Below, piece after piece: positions 679 to 7,056 of a DNA stretch of 8,112 bases. The notes beneath the pieces were generated by a model. That model was not told the origin of the DNA and ran no database searches. It saw nothing but the letters and a program-made list of their open reading frames with translations. A program made the translations under genes and the position numbers. The stretch lies in IMG/VR virus record IMGVR_UViG_2925877141_000003, one strand, 5' to 3'. The DNA is from a virus. Lineage: Duplodnaviria > Heunggongvirae > Uroviricota > Caudoviricetes. Positions within the stretch are counted from its first letter, which is position 1. Every line of letters starts with the position of its first letter.

Positions 679-969
679 TTAATCAACGACCTGAGCATCA
701 TCCAGCCAGAAACCTGCTTTAGTGAGTGCGTCAAAAGCGGCTTTTTGCAGATTATCCAGGTCACGGCGACGGCGATCCGGCATGTGGCACTCAATGCGGA
801 TTTTCACAGGCATAGCCAGGCCGATATCCAGCATTGCGTTTTTAATGATTCGGGCGACGTTATCGCGGTATGCCTGCCCCTCTGCGCTGACGTGCGTGCG
901 CCCGCGATTATGGCGGTAATAGCGATTATTGCTCGGAGGCCAGGGTAATGTGATGTTGTAGGTATTCAC
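679..969 (-). CDS. rusA: Holliday-junction resolvase RusA, C-terminally truncated: in-frame TAA at codon 97 where the family has Tyr; native frame would run on to 607
   Basis: Translation [96 protein letters not shown] then TAA (complement of 679-681). The same frame continues RVVKMPVTKGGRLELTITEMGNE to TGA at 609-607. GTG start at 969-967 overlaps the ybcO stop (GTGA). The 154-aa ORF in the track is an upstream over-extension. Confidence 0.82.
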
Positions 970-1256
970 GCCTTGATTACCCCCTCTTTCATCCAGATAA
1001 CCTGCGTTCTCGCCATACCTTCCAGCGCGCATTCTTTTGCATATGCGGCATCGACAAAATGTGTGCGGCGGTCGATTTCGTCGTGGCAGGCAGAACATGC
1101 AATGGTGGCAATCAGGTCTGGCGGTTTGGTACCGGTGCCGCACAATCCAGTCAGCCGGATATGTGCCAGTACAGACGTTTCAGGGTTGCCATTACATACG
1201 CCAAGGATTCTTACCTGGCATTCCCGACCACGCGCTGCTTTTCTCAAATCAGCCAT
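966..1256 (-). CDS. ybcO: YbcO-like DUF1364 protein (putative nuclease, cysteine-rich)
   Basis: Translation [99 protein letters not shown] at 1256-1254 is preceded by a strong SD (AAGGAGGAATCATG) and overlaps the ninE stop. Confidence 0.85.
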
Positions 1257-1419
1257 GATTCCTCCTTGCTGCCAGTCGCAACCATTTTTTATCAACCAGG
1301 CTGGCGGTATATCCGAGCAGTGTTGGTATTTCGGATGGCTTCAGCTCAGGTTTACGCTTACGACGATTTGGTACTCTGTAGATGTGTCCGTTCATGACAC
1401 GAATAAGCGGTGTAGCCAT
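1249..1419 (-). CDS. ninE: NinE protein (56 aa)
   Basis: Hand translation [59 protein letters not shown] at 1419-1417 overlaps the ybcN stop (TAATG). Stop TGA is the complement of 1249-1251. Confidence 0.9.
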   Translation of the reverse strand: MATPLIRVMNGHIYRVPNRRKRKPELKPSEIPTLLGYTASLVDKKWLRLAARRNHG

Positions 1420-1874
1420 TACGCCTCCTGCTTGTCGCGCAGCAGCTGGAACTCGCAGCTCTGCGGAATAGTCAGGTGGCAGCCAATATTCATCGCCCAG
1501 GCTTCAACCTTACACAGGAAGACATACATCTCTCCGGCATCAAGATCGGAGGTATGGCGTAACGACTGGATAGTGGTGATTTCACCGGTTACGACATCAA
1601 CCAGGTCCTTGGTTTCATAACCGAGGTATGTGTGTTTGAGAGCTTCTTTTACCCATGCTGCGGTAGCGAACGATTTCCCCCTGCTGATAAGGTATTCACT
1701 GATTTCGCTGTACCACATGTGGCTGAGTGCATTCTGGGAAAGACTGCGTTTCTCACGCCACGGTTTAAGCACCATGCGAAAGCATTTTCCGTCCTCCAGA
1801 TAAGGCTGGATCTGCTGGCCGATAGCGGTGAAGTTGCCGCGATGTAATTTGATGCCATCTTGTGGTAGGTTCAC
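1419..1874 (-). CDS. ybcN: YbcN (DLP12-type prophage protein, reported DNA base-flipping protein)
   Basis: 151-aa translation [45 protein letters not shown]...[12 protein letters not shown] matches my recollection of K-12 YbcN. GTG start (complement of 1872-1874) is preceded by GGAGGTGAAGC. Confidence 0.9.
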
Positions 1875-2300: not shown

Positions 2301-3803
2301 ATGACTCAAACTCCACTATTACTTGCAATCATATTTTTATTGGTTGTTCTTGTTCTATATATAGCTGCAATCAAACGCATCAAAAAAATACAATTAGAAT
2401 TAAGTGATAGCAATCAAAAAAATGAAGAATACAAATCTCGCTTTGCAGATTATTTTAATGTGGAAGAGGAATGTAAGAAGCTTATTGAGAAAACAGAGCA
2501 AGAATGCTCCATTATAAAAGAAGAGTCCCAAAAAGTAAAAGAAAATGCCAATAATGAACTAACAAACACCATTGAAAAAATGGATGGTATCAATAAACAA
2601 ATCCAAGAACTAAGAAGAACTTATAAAGAGAAGAAAGAAATATATGATAAGCTAGTAAAGCAAATTTCTATTTATTCAGAAGATGTTGAACTAGCCGAAC
2701 TAGGATTTTACGAACCTCATTTTAATTTTGAAGATTCAGAGCAATTTAAAAACAAAATAAAATCCATCAGGGATGAACAGAAATTAATGCTGCGGGATAA
2801 AACCCACTCTGGTGCAGTATATTGCACAACCCAATGGACTGTTGAAGGCTCTCGAGCAGAGGGTAAAAAAATGACAGACAGAAATATTAGGCTAACTACT
2901 AGAGCATTTAATAATGAATGTGATGCTGCAATTAGTAATTGCACGTGGAAAAATATCACTAAAATGGAAGAACGCATCACAAAGGCATTTGAGGCCATAA
3001 ATAAACTAAACGAGCAAAATCACATATATATAAATACTAAATACCTTAATAAAAAACTTGAGGAGTTGTGGCTTACCCATGAATATCGTGAGCAAAAACA
3101 GAAAGAAAAAGAAGAACAGGCAGAAATAAGGGCACAAATGAGAGAGGAGGAGCGTGCACAACGAGAAATAGAAAAGGCCATGCAAGACGCAGAGGCAGAA
3201 GAGCGCCGTTATAAAAAAGCAATTGAAGCTGCAAGAAAGGAAATGGAAAAAGTTACTGGTGACATGAAGCAGCGCCTCGAAAATCGCATTGCCGAACTAG
3301 AACAGAGTTTGTCGCAGGCTGAATCAAAGCATCAAAGAGCATTATCCATGGCACAACAAACCAAACAAGGTCATGTTTATATTATTTCGAACATAGGTTC
3401 TTTTGGGGAGAATGTTTATAAAATAGGCATGACACGACGTCTTGATCCACAAGACCGTGTAAATGAGCTTGGTGATGCATCTGTTCCTTTTATTTTTGAT
3501 GTGCATGCCATGATTTATTCGGAGGACGCTCCATCATTAGAAAAAAAACTACATGATGTCTTCGATAAAAAGAGAGTCAATCTTGTAAATCGTAGAAAAG
3601 AGTTTTTCTATGTTACTCTGGATGAGATCAAAGAAGCTGTTAAAAAACACTCTGATTCAGAAATTGAATTTATTGAGACAGCAGTCGCAAAAGACTTTAA
3701 TGAGTCATTGGCTATTCGTAATCATGAAAATAAAAAAATCGACAACAGCAACTCATCAATCATACTTGAGCGAAAAATCACAGAGTTTGCAGATGCAATT
3801 TAA
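2301..3803 (+). CDS. Membrane-anchored coiled-coil protein with C-terminal GIY-YIG/T5orf172 nuclease-like domain (DUF4041 or SNIPE-like architecture); candidate anti-phage effector
   Basis: 500-aa ORF with SD-like AAGGA at 2287-2291. N-terminal hydrophobic helix LLLAIIFLLVVLVLYIAAI, then about 300 residues of K/E/Q/R-rich coiled coil. C-terminal GHVYIISNIGSFGENVYKIGMTRRLDPQDRVNELGD (from nt 3369) fits the GIY-x(10)-YKIG-x(3)-R...E pattern. Confidence 0.85.
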   Translation: MTQTPLLLAIIFLLVVLVLYIAAIKRIKKIQLELSDSNQKNEEYKSRFADYFNVEEECKKLIEKTEQECSIIKEESQKVKENANNELTNTIEKMDGINKQIQELRRTYKEKKEIYDKLVKQISIYSEDVELAELGFYEPHFNFEDSEQFKNKIKSIRDEQKLMLRDKTHSGAVYCTTQWTVEGSRAEGKKMTDRNIRLTTRAFNNECDAAISNCTWKNITKMEERITKAFEAINKLNEQNHIYINTKYLNKKLEELWLTHEYREQKQKEKEEQAEIRAQMREEERAQREIEKAMQDAEAEERRYKKAIEAARKEMEKVTGDMKQRLENRIAELEQSLSQAESKHQRALSMAQQTKQGHVYIISNIGSFGENVYKIGMTRRLDPQDRVNELGDASVPFIFDVHAMIYSEDAPSLEKKLHDVFDKKRVNLVNRRKEFFYVTLDEIKEAVKKHSDSEIEFIETAVAKDFNESLAIRNHENKKIDNSNSSIILERKITEFADAI

Positions 3804-3858: not shown

Positions 3859-4037
3859 TTACATCCTCCTCTCGGAAAACGTCGATTACTTGCAACTTTA
3901 TTTTTAATTTCCAGCAGCAAGTACTAATGCACAACCTCCATTACATACTGATTTGAACATCACGAATCCCGCCTCTAGCTTAAACTACAAAGTATTACCA
4001 GAATCAATCTTATTCATAATTAAACTCCACAGACCAA

Positions 4038-4101
4038 TTGAACATATGAATCCATATTGATATGCTACATCACAATGTGTTAACCATTAGATAACACATT
4101 G
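4038..4101 (+). promoter_or_regulatory. Candidate promoter (TTGAAC, 17-nt spacer, TATGCT) followed by a perfect 10-bp inverted repeat (candidate operator) upstream of the HD gene
   Basis: TTGAAC at 4038-4043 and TATGCT at 4061-4066. Inverted repeat caatgtgtta (4074-4083), spacer ccattaga, taacacattg (4092-4101), about 60 nt upstream of the ATG at 4163. SD-like AAGGAAA at 4151-4157. Confidence 0.3.
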
Positions 4102-4162
4102 AAACTATAAACATCATTACTATTTAAATTTCGTATTATAACTACAGCAAAAGGAAAGCCTC

Positions 4163-5710
4163 ATGACAAACAAAAACAAACTTGAGAACTTTGAAGACTT
4201 ACTTCTGGGGAAGTTTTTAGATCCCATACATGGAGTGATTCGAATAACTAAGCTAGAAAAAAAGATAATTGACCATCCTTTATTCCAACGACTACGAGAT
4301 ATCAGGCAGAACACGTTTCTATATAAAGTATTTCCTTCTGCAATGCACTCTCGCTTTGAACACTCTGTCGGTGTAATGCATTTATCGTATGAGATTTTGA
4401 AAAATATAAATTTGAATGCATTAATTTATGACCGAAAAAATATGGGCATTGATCTATATTTAGATATAAAAAAAATGCCTTCAAGTCTTATACAGGAGTT
4501 ACGTATTGCAGCATTGTTACACGATGTTGGGCATGGCCCACTTGCCCACCAATTCGATAGTTTTGCAATATCCGTAAAAGATTTCAAAGAAAAATGCAAA
4601 ACTGAAGGAAATAAACAATACGATAAGATTATATCTTTAAGTGATAATGACAAGTTAACCCACGAACAAGTATCATGTATTTTTATTAAAGAAATTATTG
4701 AAGAATTAAAAAATGAAGCCCAAGATAAATCAAATGACGACGATGTCTATAAAGAAAACATAGCGGCTATTAATCCAGAAAGCATTATAAAAATTGTTGA
4801 TAAAAGATATGATTTTAAAAATAACATTGAGGGAGTAAATGTATATCCTTTATTAGGTTCAATCATATCATCTTCACCTATAGATGCGGACAGAATGGAC
4901 TACCTACTTAGAGATAGCTACTTCTCCGGCGTTAAATATGGGATTTATGATTATGGACGATTATTAATGTCATTTATTCCTGTGAAAGTTGAAAATAGTG
5001 TTTACCTGGCATATAAAGAAAGTGGTATGGATTCAATACTAGAATTTGCCAATGCAAGAAGTGGGCTTTATAGTCAAGTTTATTTTCATAAGACCAATCG
5101 TGCACTATCTGCGATGCTTAACAAAGCGTGTTCTAGAAAAAAAACTGATGATGTTGTCTCTTTAAAATCTAAAAACACTCTCATTGAGTCCATCAAACAC
5201 TTTTATCGTGAAAACCCAGACAAAACGTTTTTAGAAAACACTCTTAAAAACACATTAGATAAAAATTCTCAAGCTATAATTCAAGATATTGTTGATAGAA
5301 ATGTTTGGAAAAAAATATATGAAAAAAAACACACGTTTTCTAATGTTAACATTTCCGACAACAGATACAAAGAATATAAACAAAATATATCTAAGAAAAT
5401 CAACAAAATCATTGAGGATAATTTAAAAGGAGATGAATGGGTTCTTGATTTTCAGATTGAAGATAACTTTAAAGATATCGATACAAGTCAAGCTAAAATA
5501 ATAAAAAAAGAAACAGGCGGCAAGTATACAATAAATGATTTATGTAAGTATAACGATGTACTTCAACCCTATCACTATGTTAAATTCTTTATTCGAGTTT
5601 TTGTTTCTAAGACAACTCAACTCCAAAACACCGAAGAAATTAATGTGTTAATAAAAAAAATAGATAAATGTCTTAATGATGAGATTGAACATATTAAAAA
5701 AGACAAGTAG
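4163..5710 (+). CDS. HD-domain phosphohydrolase of the SAMHD1-like dNTP triphosphohydrolase family (COG1078-type); candidate dNTP-depleting defence protein
   Basis: 515-aa ORF. N-terminus DPIHGVIRITKLEKKIIDHPLFQRLRDIRQ, then HSRFEHSVGVMHL, LLHDVGHGPLAHQFD and PIDADRMDYLLRDSYFSGV, the characteristic His / His-Asp / Asp metal-ligand motifs of this family. The C-terminal roughly 200 residues are K/N-rich and unassigned. Confidence 0.88.
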   Translation: MTNKNKLENFEDLLLGKFLDPIHGVIRITKLEKKIIDHPLFQRLRDIRQNTFLYKVFPSAMHSRFEHSVGVMHLSYEILKNINLNALIYDRKNMGIDLYLDIKKMPSSLIQELRIAALLHDVGHGPLAHQFDSFAISVKDFKEKCKTEGNKQYDKIISLSDNDKLTHEQVSCIFIKEIIEELKNEAQDKSNDDDVYKENIAAINPESIIKIVDKRYDFKNNIEGVNVYPLLGSIISSSPIDADRMDYLLRDSYFSGVKYGIYDYGRLLMSFIPVKVENSVYLAYKESGMDSILEFANARSGLYSQVYFHKTNRALSAMLNKACSRKKTDDVVSLKSKNTLIESIKHFYRENPDKTFLENTLKNTLDKNSQAIIQDIVDRNVWKKIYEKKHTFSNVNISDNRYKEYKQNISKKINKIIEDNLKGDEWVLDFQIEDNFKDIDTSQAKIIKKETGGKYTINDLCKYNDVLQPYHYVKFFIRVFVSKTTQLQNTEEINVLIKKIDKCLNDEIEHIKKDK

Positions 5711-5752
5711 AGCCCCCCTGATGTTTTAAAAAAACATCTTAACTATAAACAA

Positions 5753-5787
5753 AACGCCATTAGTTACTCTCAGTAACTAGTGGCGTT
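5753..5787. terminator. Near-perfect 16-bp stem hairpin (3-nt loop) downstream of the HD gene; T-rich tract lies on the minus-strand side, possibly bidirectional
   Basis: 5753-5768 aacgccattagttact pairs with 5772-5787 agtaactagtggcgtt (one G-U pair), loop ctc. On the minus strand it is followed by TTTTGTTTATAG. Confidence 0.4.
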
Positions 5788-5823
5788 CATGTCTAATGAT
5801 TGATCCGCAGTATTATCTGGTGC

Positions 5824-5852
5824 TTGTCAATCAGATTTATTCATTGTTTAAT
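5824..5852 (+). promoter_or_regulatory. Candidate sigma70 promoter in the cargo-side intergenic region, reading toward bet'-exo-int: TTGTCA, 17-nt spacer, TTTAAT
   Basis: TTGTCA at 5824-5829 and TTTAAT at 5847-5852. A 7-bp inverted repeat tgattga (5798-5804) / tcaatca (5827-5833) overlaps the -35. Pattern match only. Confidence 0.25.
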
Positions 5853-6058
5853 ACTACCTCAGCATCCTGTTATACGCTACACAACCATTATTACTCATCC
5901 TTTGAGTTACATTTAATATCTGAAATATTTTTGTGTTAATCAATGTGTGGATATATTCCCTACTAATTCACTAATTCATACAGCACCAAGCTAGAAACAT
6001 TGTTATAGTTCCCCGCACAAAGCAAACCATTAAATTTGATTGGATGTTTTCGAGATAA

Positions 6059-6286
6059 CCATCAAATCAAGTAATAACTAATCTCCCATATAACGATGAA
6101 ACCATGCAGGAGATTAACACTCTGCTGATTGCCCTGGACAAAACATGGGATGACGACTTATTGCCGCTCTGTTCCCAGATATTTCGCCGCGACATTCGCG
6201 CATCGTCAGAACTGACACAGGCCGAAGCAGTGAAAGCTCTTGGATTCCTGAAACAGAAAGCCTCTGAACAGAAGGTGGCTGCATGA
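6059..6286 (+). pseudogene. bet: 3' remnant of the lambda bet (Red-beta) gene; only the last ~60 codons remain, 5' part replaced by cargo
   Basis: Translation ...[62 protein letters not shown] matches the Bet C-terminus as I recall it. Stop TGA (6284-6286) overlaps the exo ATG (ATGA) as in lambda. The frame is open from the stop at 6056-6058; recognisable homology starts near 6095. Confidence 0.8.
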
Positions 6287-6963
6287 CACCGGACATTATC
6301 CTGCAGCGTACCGGGATCGACATGAGAGCTGTCGAACAGGGGGATGATGCGTGGCACAAATTACGGCTCGGCGTCATCACCGCTTCAGAAGTTCACAATG
6401 TGATAGCAAAACCCCGCTCCGGAAAGAAATGGCCTGACATGAAAATGTCCTACTTCCACACCCTGCTGGCTGAGGTTTGCACCGGTGTGGCTCCGGAAGT
6501 TAACGCTAAGGCGCTGGCCTGGGGAAAACAGTACGAGAACGACGCCAGAGCCCTGTTTGAGTTTACTTCCGGCGTTAATGTTACTGAATCCCCGATCATC
6601 TATCGCGACGAAAGTATGCGTACCGCCTGCTCTCCCGATGGTTTATGCAGTGACGGCAATGGCCTTGAGCTGAAATGCCCGTTTACCTCCCGGGATTTCA
6701 TGAAGTTCCGGCTCGGTGGTTTCGAGGCCATAAAGTCGGCTTACATGGCCCAGGTGCAGTACAGCATGTGGGTGACGCGAAAAGATGCCTGGTACTTTGC
6801 CAACTATGACCCGCGTATGAAGCGTGAAGGCCTGCATTATGTCGTGGTTGAGCGGGATGAAAAGTACATGGCGAGTTTTGACGAGATGGTGCCGGAGTTC
6901 ATCGAAAAAATGGACGAGGCACTGGCTGAAATTGGTTTTGTATTTGGGGAGCAATGGCGATGA
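6283..6963 (+). CDS. exo: Lambda-type exonuclease (Red-alpha, Exo), full length (226 aa)
   Basis: Translation [54 protein letters not shown]...[15 protein letters not shown] is essentially lambda Exo end to end. Confidence 0.95.
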
Positions 6964-7056
6964 AGCATCCTCACGATAATATCCGGGTATTCGCTCCCGG
7001 GCGGGAAACGAATTAAGGAATCTCTTGGCACAAAGGACAAGCGGCAAGCTCAGGAG

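What the first reader, a model, noticed from the sequence alone, without database searches (positions are those of the whole stretch)
4163..5710. SAMHD1-like HD-domain dNTPase homologue as prophage cargo
All hallmark motifs of the COG1078 dNTP triphosphohydrolase family are present in order: DPIHG...IIDHPLFQRLRDIRQ, HSRFEHSVGV, LLHDVGHGPLAH and DADRMDYLLRDSYF. Established knowledge: SAMHD1 restricts viruses by depleting dNTPs, and bacterial dGTPase-type enzymes have been reported to defend against phage by nucleotide depletion. A COG1078-type enzyme in a prophage cargo slot next to a nuclease-like defence gene is therefore a strong candidate for a nucleotide-depletion defence. The C-terminal ~200 residues (K/N-rich, no motif I recognise) could hold a regulatory or phage-sensing function.
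Basis: partly seen in the sequence, partly recalled or inferred. Interest (0 to 1): 0.75.

Follow-up and report, generated by a model that had tools for sequence, protein, structure and literature searches.

The report
Prophage-borne SAMHD1-type dNTPase cassette
A rare, self-contained gene carried by E. coli prophages encodes a close bacterial relative of the human antiviral enzyme SAMHD1; it probably protects the host by destroying DNA building blocks during phage attack, which is plausible but untested and works by an already known principle.

Summary

The window is a decayed DLP12-type lambdoid prophage. The gene lies in a 29-35% GC island in the ninB(ybcN)-ren slot, antisense to the phage early operon and directly after PD-lambda-1/SNIPE, a known single-gene defence. 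The two are independent: SNIPE stands alone in 110 E. coli genomes, and HD relatives in other genera never have SNIPE beside them.

The HD gene travels with its own upstream region and terminator-like hairpin. It occurs in 21 of 5426 complete E. coli genomes, its catalytic core is under strong purifying selection, and relatives sit in other prophage slots and defence islands.

It belongs to the SAMHD1/EF1143 clade, not the Dgt-type clade that holds the proven defensive dGTPases I compared (PADLOC dGTPase model, CloA, VC1979 as stand-in for Vdg). It is absent from PADLOC v2. Defence is inferred, not shown, and the 44%-identical Klebsiella pneumoniae homologue is a fixed chromosomal gene.

Verdict: a good but unsurprising candidate, a new variant of nucleotide-depletion defence.

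The parts
4163..5710 (+). 515-aa SAMHD1/EF1143-type HD-domain (d)NTP triphosphohydrolase homologue. Metal ligands H67, H120-D121, D243. Further catalytic residues H124, H129, H167-E168.
3866..6066 (+). The HD cassette as an insertion, relative to prophages that carry SNIPE alone. Homology to SNIPE-only prophages ends at 3865. The 3' limit is the start of the ren remnant.
   Evidence: blastn of the window against L069 (SNIPE only) and L002 (SNIPE + HD + ren); annotations.
3928..5829 (+). Widest stretch conserved at DNA level (77-80%) with Serratia. The Enterobacter (4014-5829) and Proteus (4038-5620) matches are shorter. The gene, up to ~235 bp upstream and up to ~120 bp downstream move together.
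   Evidence: blastn against L064, L060, L059 and L003; alignments A3 and A4.
4038..4066 (+). Candidate sigma-70 promoter TTGAAC-N17-TATGCT inside an upstream block that is invariant across genera. Inferred; it falls below the threshold of the consensus scan.
   Evidence: Alignment A3 invariant columns. Not listed by the scan.
4150..4158 (+). Ribosome-binding site AAAGGAAAG, 4 nt before the ATG, invariant in six sequences from four genera.
   Evidence: Sequence; alignment A3.
5753..5787 (+). Terminator-like hairpin (16-nt arms, 3-nt loop) 43 nt after the stop codon, preceded by a smaller hairpin at 5720-5738. There is no T-run, so terminator function is inferred.
   Evidence: the repeat finder I10. 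RNA fold z = -6.8. Arms kept across genera with a compensatory change.
2301..3803 (+). Neighbour only, not part of the system: PD-lambda-1/SNIPE, a DUF4041 + T5orf172 membrane nuclease and a known single-gene defence.
   Evidence: PADLOC 5e-198. Pfam. PMC13190303. It stands alone in 110 E. coli genomes.
1419..1874 (-). ybcN/NinB, the left border of the cargo slot. Phage early-right genes are on the minus strand, so the cargo is antisense to them.
   Evidence: Pfam NinB; RefSeq annotation.
6091..6989 (+). bet remnant plus exo (YqaJ). The junction at about 6092 marks a ~6 kb deletion (ren to gam) of the prophage, found in only 3 genomes.
   Evidence: blastn against L002; annotation; whole-window search.

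Best explanation
The gene is an autonomous single-gene 'moron' cassette carried by temperate phages. It encodes a SAMHD1/EF1143-clade HD-domain deoxynucleoside triphosphate triphosphohydrolase. Shown: the fold, the catalytic residues, most allosteric-site residues, its mobility, its position as prophage cargo, and purifying selection on the core. Inferred: it is transcribed in the lysogen from its own promoter, antisense to the phage early operon. Inferred: the enzyme is largely inactive until (d)GTP and dNTPs fill conserved allosteric pockets and drive oligomerisation, as in SAMHD1 and EF1143. Inferred: the dNTP surge caused by an infecting lytic phage would then switch it on, dNTPs would be hydrolysed to deoxynucleosides plus triphosphate, and phage DNA replication would stall. 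It would act as a second, post-injection layer behind its neighbour SNIPE, which cuts DNA during injection, but independently of it.

For: Catalytic and pocket residues. In the alignment to full-length SAMHD1 (7ujn numbering), Q149, R164, H167, H206-D207, H210, H215, H233, Y315, D319, R366 and Y374 correspond to Q49, R64, H67, H120-D121, H124, H129, H167, Y247, D251, R299 and Y307. D311 corresponds to D243 and K312 to R244. All of these positions are invariant in 39 family members.

Allosteric residues. D137/Q142/R145 correspond to D37/Q42/R45, and R333, R352, H376 and K377 correspond to R266, K285, H309 and K310. The residue roles come from the SAMHD1 literature, recalled rather than re-read.

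Cargo status. The gene is in 21 of 5426 E. coli genomes, and the 21 best-matching records all share colinear homology up to position ~6092 at the ren border. The nin-SNIPE-HD-ren order was read from annotation in two of them. The island is 29-35% GC against ~50% in the flanks. The cassette, with its upstream block and hairpin, is conserved across genera and inserted at unrelated loci.

Other phages. IMG/VR holds 20 viral loci, including a 43%-identical homologue in a P2-like myovirus, between the tail-fibre and tail-tube operons.

Defence neighbourhoods. These include CBASS and others in the Proteus mirabilis icd island. A Tal-type dGTPase lies directly upstream in Vibrio caribbeanicus. Hits to Zorya II, Lamassu, DarTG, PDC-S08 and Aga occur among the +/-5 ORFs of 16 loci.

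Selection. Core dN/dS is 0.07.

Precedent. dNTP-depleting HD enzymes defend bacteria (10.1101/2021.04.26.441389). Clover CloA is switched on by a phage-induced rise in dTTP (PMC12265719).
Against: There are no functional data for this family; I found no paper that tests it. It is not recognised by any PADLOC v2 model apart from a marginal dGTPase hit. The K. pneumoniae homologue (44% identity, a 90%-identity cluster of 3530 sequences) sits at one fixed chromosomal locus, LysR-SDR-HD-DJ-1-T6SS, like a core gene. Many relatives lie among ordinary metabolic genes. I did not compute a defence score with a background control. Allosteric residues K116, N119, K354 and N358 are not conserved, and D37 varies within the family. 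The family-invariant N50 replaces SAMHD1 L150, which as I recall is part of the 2'-OH gate, so deoxy-specificity is not assured. The promoter and terminator are only consensus or conservation inferences.
Confidence: 0.55

Rival explanations
1. It is a dNTP-pool housekeeping or sanitising enzyme, controlling pool size, mutation rate or stationary-phase physiology as Dgt-type enzymes do. It happens to be carried as a fitness-conferring moron and has no role against phage.
For: The K. pneumoniae homologue has a fixed, non-mobile chromosomal context. Many relatives have metabolic neighbours. A bacterial dNTPase with a cell-cycle role has been reported in Caulobacter (PMC11071499, listed). E. coli K-12 manages without any member of this clade.
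Against: In E. coli it is rare (0.4% of genomes) and confined to prophage moron slots. It is repeatedly acquired by different phage types. It is found in defence islands and next to a proven-type defensive dGTPase.
Confidence: 0.2
2. It is the second component of a two-gene system with PD-lambda-1/SNIPE, for example an effector or regulator that works with the membrane nuclease.
For: All 21 E. coli genomes with the HD gene also have SNIPE immediately upstream on the same strand.
Against: SNIPE stands alone in the same slot in 110 genomes and defends as a single gene (PMC13190303). None of 54 loci from other species, and none of the 13 non-E. coli-type viral loci, has a SNIPE homologue near the HD gene. 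A hairpin and a 360-bp spacer with its own conserved promoter-like block separate the two genes. SNIPE is 99.3% identical between the two prophage types but HD only 90%, so their histories differ. SNIPE is IS-disrupted in some HD-bearing strains.
Confidence: 0.05
3. It is an HD hydrolase with a different substrate, such as rNTPs, (p)ppGpp-like alarmones or immune signalling nucleotides. It would then act as a toxin-like NTP depleter, or as a phage counter-defence that degrades host second messengers.
Confidence: 0.12
4. It serves the prophage itself. It might keep dNTPs low to stabilise lysogeny, or exclude competing plasmids and other mobile elements rather than lytic phages.
For: Its orientation is antisense to the pR operon, so lytic transcription could silence it on induction (inference). 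The gene is retained in a dead prophage remnant.
Against: Retention in a prophage that can no longer replicate (ren to gam deleted) argues that the benefit goes to the host. Many relatives are not in prophages at all.
Confidence: 0.08

Closest known systems
Human SAMHD1 (HD-domain dNTP triphosphohydrolase, retroviral restriction factor)
   Different: There is no SAM domain and no C-terminal phospho-regulatory tail. Identity is 22-24%. There is an extra helical insert at aa ~135-227. N50 replaces L150, and K116, N119, K354 and N358 are not kept. Oligomeric state and activators are unknown. It is carried by prophages.
EF1143 (Enterococcus faecalis), Aq_1910 (2hek) and BT4208 (2q14): bacterial SAMHD1-clade HD proteins (COG1078-type, from my knowledge)
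   Different: Those are chromosomal proteins with no reported role in phage defence. The present family is ~80-140 residues longer than Aq_1910 and BT4208 because of the insert and a fuller C-lobe. It is mobile.
Defensive dGTPases of Tal et al. 2022 (Sp-dGTPase; PADLOC/DefenseFinder 'dGTPase'), Clover CloA and Vibrio Vdg: the Dgt-type clade
   Same: All are stand-alone or small-operon HD triphosphohydrolases whose proven role is nucleotide-depletion defence. One such gene lies directly upstream of a family member in Vibrio caribbeanicus. CloA's activation by a dNTP rise is the model for the mechanism proposed here (PMC12265719).
Lambdoid and P2-like prophage moron or defence hotspots (for example the ninB-ren slot holding PD-lambda-1/SNIPE; P2/P4 hotspots of Rousset et al. 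2022, PMC9122126)
   Same: The genomic habit is the same: a low-GC, independently transcribed cargo gene in a variable slot of temperate phages.
   Different: The cargo has not been validated. Neither the SNIPE paper nor the Rousset paper mentions an HD gene in these slots.

Membership tests
SAMHD1/EF1143-clade dNTP triphosphohydrolases | HD-superfamily metal site H...HD...D | tested here: met
   H67, H120-D121 and D243 align to SAMHD1 H167, H206-D207 and D311. They are invariant in 39 homologues.
SAMHD1/EF1143-clade dNTP triphosphohydrolases | Additional catalytic histidines and glutamate (SAMHD1 H210, H215, H233-E234), plus triphosphate and sugar contacts (R164, K312, Y315, D319, R366, Y374) | tested here: met
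   The equivalents are H124, H129, H167-E168, R64, R244 (K to R), Y247, D251, R299 and Y307. The exceptions are L150 to N50, H370 to Y303 and Q375 to F308.
SAMHD1/EF1143-clade dNTP triphosphohydrolases | Two-lobe fold: HD core plus C-terminal lobe | tested here: met
SAMHD1/EF1143-clade dNTP triphosphohydrolases | Nucleotide-binding allosteric sites that drive tetramerisation | tested here: inconclusive
   D37/Q42/R45, R266, K285 and H309-K310 are conserved relative to D137/Q142/R145, R333, R352 and H376-K377. K116, N119, K354 and N358 are not conserved, and D37 varies in the family. The oligomer was not modelled.
SAMHD1/EF1143-clade dNTP triphosphohydrolases | dNTP to deoxynucleoside + triphosphate activity | not testable with these tools
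   Needs purified protein.
Defensive dGTPase family (Tal et al. 2022; PADLOC 'dGTPase'; Dgt-type) | Full-length match to the family profile (Tal et al. required >=25% identity to Sp-dGTPase over >=90% of both proteins) | tested here: not met
   PADLOC PDLC02374 gives 16.7 bits, E 9e-4, over aa 59-153 only. A real member scores 449.7 bits. TIGR01353 gives 23.4 bits against a cutoff of 152.35. Direct identity to Sp-dGTPase was not computed because I did not have the sequence.
Defensive dGTPase family (Tal et al. 2022; PADLOC 'dGTPase'; Dgt-type) | Dgt-type fold | tested here: not met
Defensive dGTPase family (Tal et al. 2022; PADLOC 'dGTPase'; Dgt-type) | Experimentally shown phage defence with dGTP depletion | not testable with these tools
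Clover (CloA dNTPase + CloB nucleotidyltransferase) | Adjacent Pol-beta-type NTase (CloB) in the same operon | tested here: not met
   The neighbours are SNIPE (DUF4041/T5orf172) and a bet remnant or ren. There is no NTase. Distant relatives pair with a CYTH protein instead.
PD-lambda-1/SNIPE as a multi-gene system including the HD gene | Obligate co-occurrence of the two genes | tested here: not met
   SNIPE occurs without HD in 110 of 131 E. coli genomes. HD relatives lack SNIPE in 54 of 54 loci from other species.
Prophage moron / accessory defence cargo | Sporadic distribution, atypical GC, own expression signals, location in a variable slot of temperate phages | tested here: met
   It is in 21 of 5426 genomes. 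GC is 29-35% against ~50% in the flanks. It is antisense to the nin/Q genes and has a conserved upstream block and hairpin. It occupies the same slot in an intact lambdoid prophage and a different slot in a P2-like myovirus.

The most novel reading that the evidence does not exclude
This family may be the true bacterial counterpart of SAMHD1. It would be a stand-alone, phage-borne, SAMHD1-clade dNTPase that needs no partner, because its conserved allosteric pockets read the dNTP surge of infection directly. If so, SAMHD1-type immunity, and not only the Dgt-type branch, already operated in prokaryotes and was spread by temperate phages. The hypervariable surface segments (aa 135-227 and 325-424) would mark an arms race with phage-encoded inhibitors analogous to T7 Gp1.2 or Vpx.
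Probability: 0.35. Interest if true: 0.65.

Novelty: new variant of a known kind. Interest (0 to 1): 0.45.

Why it matters
Nucleotide-depletion defence in bacteria has so far been demonstrated for Dgt-type dGTPases, dCTP deaminases and a few others. The clade that actually contains human SAMHD1 has, as far as I could find, no tested bacterial defence member and no model in PADLOC v2.

A positive test would add a widespread single-gene system to the defence catalogue; thousands of homologues exist in Gammaproteobacteria, Bacteroidota and Firmicutes. It would tighten the evolutionary link between bacterial and human antiviral dNTPases. It would also give a simple model for how allosteric sensing of dNTP levels distinguishes infection from normal growth.

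If the test is negative, the gene is an example of a metabolic moron, and that would warn against calling defence from prophage position alone.

Tried and rejected
1. Two-gene SNIPE + HD system. Rejected by the co-occurrence counts and the different allele histories.

2. Clover-like system. There is no NTase neighbour, and CloA is structurally distant.

3. Membership of the Tal/PADLOC dGTPase family. Rejected by profile scores and fold.

4. A novel C-terminal sensor domain. Rejected, because it aligns to the SAMHD1 C-lobe.

5. Terminal repeats or a recombinase that would explain the cassette's mobility. None was found; the only notable repeat is the hairpin.

6. Rfam search of the window found nothing. 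The consensus promoter and terminator scan was no better than shuffles.

7. Bona fide isolated phages carrying a close homologue. INPHARED has none above 60% identity. The Klebsiella 'phage' hit I inspected (H23) is a mis-delimited prophage record that includes chromosomal flank.

8. Plasmid carriage. There are only distant or chromosome-like hits.

9. Literature searches by accession, 'SAMHD1-like', EF1143 and 'HD domain-containing protein' found no paper on this family. Brenes and Laub 2025, on E. coli prophage defence systems, is not held and could not be checked.

10. Mapping every PADLOC hit to its locus. This was only partly done, for the dGTPase in L004. No background-controlled defence score was computed.

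Full report
**1. What is in the window**

The 8.1-kb window is part of a decayed DLP12-type lambdoid prophage of E. coli, integrated next to a tRNA-Arg gene; I take this to be the classical argU site from the DLP12 gene names (intD, quuD). It is 100% identical to strain 2 HS-C.

On the minus strand lie the late-regulatory and nin genes: quuD (1-399), a rusA pseudogene, ybcO, ninE and ybcN/NinB (1419-1874). On the plus strand at the right end are a bet remnant, exo (6283-6963) and intD (7057 onwards).

Between them is an island of 29-35% GC, against ~50% in the flanks. It holds two plus-strand ORFs. ORF 2301-3803 is PD-Lambda-1 (PADLOC E 5e-198; DUF4041 + T5orf172). ORF 4163-5710 is the finding.

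**2.

The 515-aa product carries every quoted motif in order. It matches Aq_1910 at 5e-30, EF1143 at 1e-26 and human SAMHD1 at 4e-26 over aa 19-430. The alignment to mouse SAMHD1 runs to aa 485.

The protein therefore belongs to the SAMHD1/EF1143 clade.

**3. Residues**

I used the HMMER alignment to full-length SAMHD1 (7ujn numbering) and the family alignment.
- The metal ligands and catalytic residues H167, H206-D207, H210, H215, H233-E234 and D311 correspond to H67, H120-D121, H124, H129, H167-E168 and D243. All are invariant.
- Of 13 SAMHD1 substrate-pocket residues, ten are identical and one is conservatively replaced (K312 to R244).
- L150 becomes N50, which is invariant in the family. 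H370 becomes Y303 and Q375 becomes F308.
- The guanine-specific allosteric triad D137/Q142/R145 corresponds to D37/Q42/R45. Q42 and R45 are invariant; D37 varies.
- The second-site residues R333, R352, H376 and K377 correspond to R266, K285, H309 and K310.
- K116, N119, K354 and N358 are not kept.

The residue roles are from my knowledge of the SAMHD1 literature, not re-read here.

**4. The C-terminal part**

Coverage is 92-100% in the full-length family members of ~495-535 aa, which make up most of the 120 listed homologues, and R379, W382, K384, E387, F436-K437-D438, K449 and R478 are invariant. This part superposes on the C-terminal lobe of SAMHD1 (Foldseek ~510 aligned columns). It is the normal regulatory and oligomerisation lobe of this enzyme class, not a new sensor.

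**5. Relationship to the neighbour**

PD-lambda-1 has been renamed SNIPE. It is a membrane nuclease that cuts phage DNA during injection and works as a single gene (PMC13190303).

In complete E. coli genomes, this SNIPE allele group occurs in 131 genomes and the HD gene in 21. All 21 HD-bearing genomes have SNIPE upstream. In the other 110, SNIPE stands alone between ybcN and ren. None of the 54 HD-homologue loci from other species has a SNIPE homologue, and neither do the 13 non-E. coli-type viral loci.

Homology between the window and SNIPE-only prophages stops at 3865, just after a hairpin that follows the SNIPE stop codon. Between the argU-type and the icd-type prophage, SNIPE is 99.3% identical and the spacer 99.7%, but the HD gene is only 89.9% identical. 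The two genes are separate cassettes stacked in one slot.

**6. The cassette**

DNA homology at 77-80% with Serratia runs from 3928 to 5819, with Enterobacter from 4014 to 5829, and with Proteus from 4038 to 5620. The gene therefore travels with up to ~235 bp upstream and up to ~120 bp downstream.

The upstream part contains a block that is invariant across four genera. It includes TTGAAC-N17-TATGCT (4038-4066) and an invariant AAAGGAAAG ribosome-binding site.

Downstream are two hairpins, at 5720-5738 and 5753-5787. The RNA fold has z = -6.8, and the second hairpin is kept across genera with a compensatory change. Promoter and terminator functions are inferred; the generic scan was uninformative.

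The cargo genes are antisense to the phage early-right operon (ren, nin, Q), which is typical of morons expressed in the lysogen (inference).

**7. Distribution and context**

In E. coli the gene is always in the ninB-ren slot. It occurs in intact lambdoid prophages, for example at icd in SCU-111, and in remnants. The ren-to-gam deletion seen in this window occurs in only 3 genomes.

Close relatives (64-77% identity) are single-gene insertions at unrelated loci:
- In Proteus mirabilis the gene is in an icd island with CBASS (CD-NTase + Cap15) and other candidate defence genes.
- In Enterobacter it lies next to HigBA and an Hcp-Tlde1 pair.
- In Serratia it follows proBA.

IMG/VR holds 20 viral loci. 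In four of them a 43%-identical homologue lies in a P2-like myovirus, between the tail-fibre genes and the tail tube, tape-measure and sheath operon. That is a different phage type and a different variable slot.

Among the +/-5 ORFs of 16 gammaproteobacterial loci, PADLOC finds hits to Zorya II, Lamassu, DarTG, PDC-S08, an Aga-type REase and a Tal-type dGTPase. The dGTPase lies immediately upstream of the homologue in Vibrio caribbeanicus. I did not map the other hits to loci and did not compute a background-controlled score.

Against a purely mobile picture, the 44%-identical K. pneumoniae homologue (a 90%-identity cluster of 3530 sequences) is always found in the order LysR-SDR-HD-DJ-1-T6SS. 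This holds even inside mis-delimited 'phage' and 'plasmid' records.

**8. Selection**

Between the two E. coli alleles, the catalytic core (aa 1-134, 228-324, 425-515) has dN/dS 0.07. For aa 228-324, dS is 0.50 and dN 0.004. The gene is therefore maintained as a functional enzyme.

Of the 78 amino-acid differences, 67 fall in aa 135-227 (the helical insert) and aa 325-424 (the linker and start of the C-lobe), where dN/dS is 0.46. The first 300 nt are almost identical, which indicates a mosaic, recombinant gene.

**9. Most likely mechanism**

The enzyme class is well supported. That it defends against phage is an inference. It rests on the prophage-moron habit, the defence-island neighbours and the precedent of dNTP-depleting HD enzymes (10.1101/2021.04.26.441389; PMC12265719; PMC13519002).

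My model is as follows. The enzyme is made in the lysogen. It stays mostly inactive until (d)GTP and dNTPs occupy the conserved allosteric pockets. It is switched on by the dNTP surge of lytic infection, and it starves the phage polymerase.

I put this at about 0.55. The rivals are housekeeping pool control (0.2), another substrate or counter-defence (0.12), benefit to the prophage itself (0.08) and partnership with SNIPE (0.05).

**10. Novelty**

The proven bacterial defensive dNTPases that could be compared here all fall in the Dgt-type clade. The PADLOC model built for the Tal et al. dGTPases barely touches this protein. CloA, and VC1979 as a stand-in for Vdg, are structurally distant. Sp-dGTPase itself was not compared directly.

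I found no paper and no PADLOC v2 model covering this SAMHD1-clade family. One relevant paper (Brenes and Laub 2025) could not be read.

I rate it a new variant of a known kind. It is worth a simple plaque assay, but a specialist would not be greatly surprised.

Noticed in passing
L038, L039, L043, L044, L046, L047, L049, L051 (ORF next to the HD gene, e.g. L043:11653-12279, L047:11442-12059): In 8 of 54 genome loci with distant relatives (30-40% identity; Paenibacillus, Planococcus, Fictibacillus, Balneolaceae, Gracilimonas, Verrucomicrobiales), a ~200-aa CYTH-domain (triphosphate tunnel) protein is the immediate neighbour of the HD gene (Pfam E 5e-17 and 2e-15). This may be a two-gene dNTPase + CYTH system, conceptually like Clover's dNTPase + NTase. 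L043 and L044 also have a ~620-aa helicase-like ORF within two ORFs upstream.
   Followed up: partly
L004:8394-9713 (+), directly upstream of the HD homologue at L004:10001-11428: In Vibrio caribbeanicus a Tal-type defensive dGTPase (PADLOC 2.9e-135) and a SAMHD1-clade homologue (47% identical to the window protein) sit side by side. These are two different dNTPase clades in tandem.
   Followed up: partly
window 4163-5710 compared with L002:12001-13548: The two E. coli alleles are mosaic. The 5' 300 nt and the upstream spacer are ~99.7% identical, while the interior is 10-19% divergent. Amino-acid changes cluster in aa 135-227 and 325-424 (dN/dS 0.46, against 0.07 in the core). This could reflect gene conversion, or surface diversification against phage inhibitors.
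   Followed up: partly
window ~6067-6100 (junction at ~6092): A ~6-kb deletion joins the 3' end of ren to the middle of bet, removing ren, P, O, the immunity region and gam. Only 3 of 5426 complete genomes share this junction. The prophage is dead, yet both cargo genes are intact.
   Followed up: yes
window 679-1143 (-): rusA carries an internal stop in the RefSeq annotation of the identical strain, so it is a pseudogene. This is further evidence of prophage decay around intact cargo.
   Followed up: no
L085-L088 (IMG/VR), HD homologue at ~8001-9518: A 43%-identical homologue lies in a P2-like myovirus prophage, between the baseplate and tail-fibre genes and the oppositely oriented tail protein, tape-measure and sheath genes. 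This resembles the variable cargo slots that Rousset et al. (PMC9122126) describe in P2-like phages.
   Followed up: partly
L057, L058, L067, L068, L008 (K. pneumoniae): The Klebsiella homologue has a fixed chromosomal context (LysR-SDR-HD-DJ-1/PfpI-T6SS). It appears inside GenBank 'phage' and PLSDB 'plasmid' records that evidently include chromosomal DNA, so the INPHARED hit inspected (MK416019, H23) is a mis-delimited prophage.
   Followed up: yes
E. coli hits H56, H57 and H62: SNIPE is interrupted by IS1 in two strains that carry an intact HD gene (TB354, Evo1). It is interrupted by IS5 in a third genome (H62) that is not among the HD-bearing ones.
   Followed up: no
P0004, P0006, P0009, P0010, P0013 (420 aa), P0029 (333 aa); H16 (1547-nt match): Truncated or frameshifted versions of the E. 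coli HD protein occur in several assemblies, which suggests occasional decay or mis-called starts.
   Followed up: no
L059 (Proteus mirabilis) 300-10017: The HD cassette lies in an icd-associated island in which short Iso_dh (icd 3'-end) fragments alternate with cargo (CBASS CD-NTase + Cap15, YaaC, mSLOG/DUF4326, DUF488, DuOB). It looks like serial insertions at the icd attachment site.
   Followed up: no
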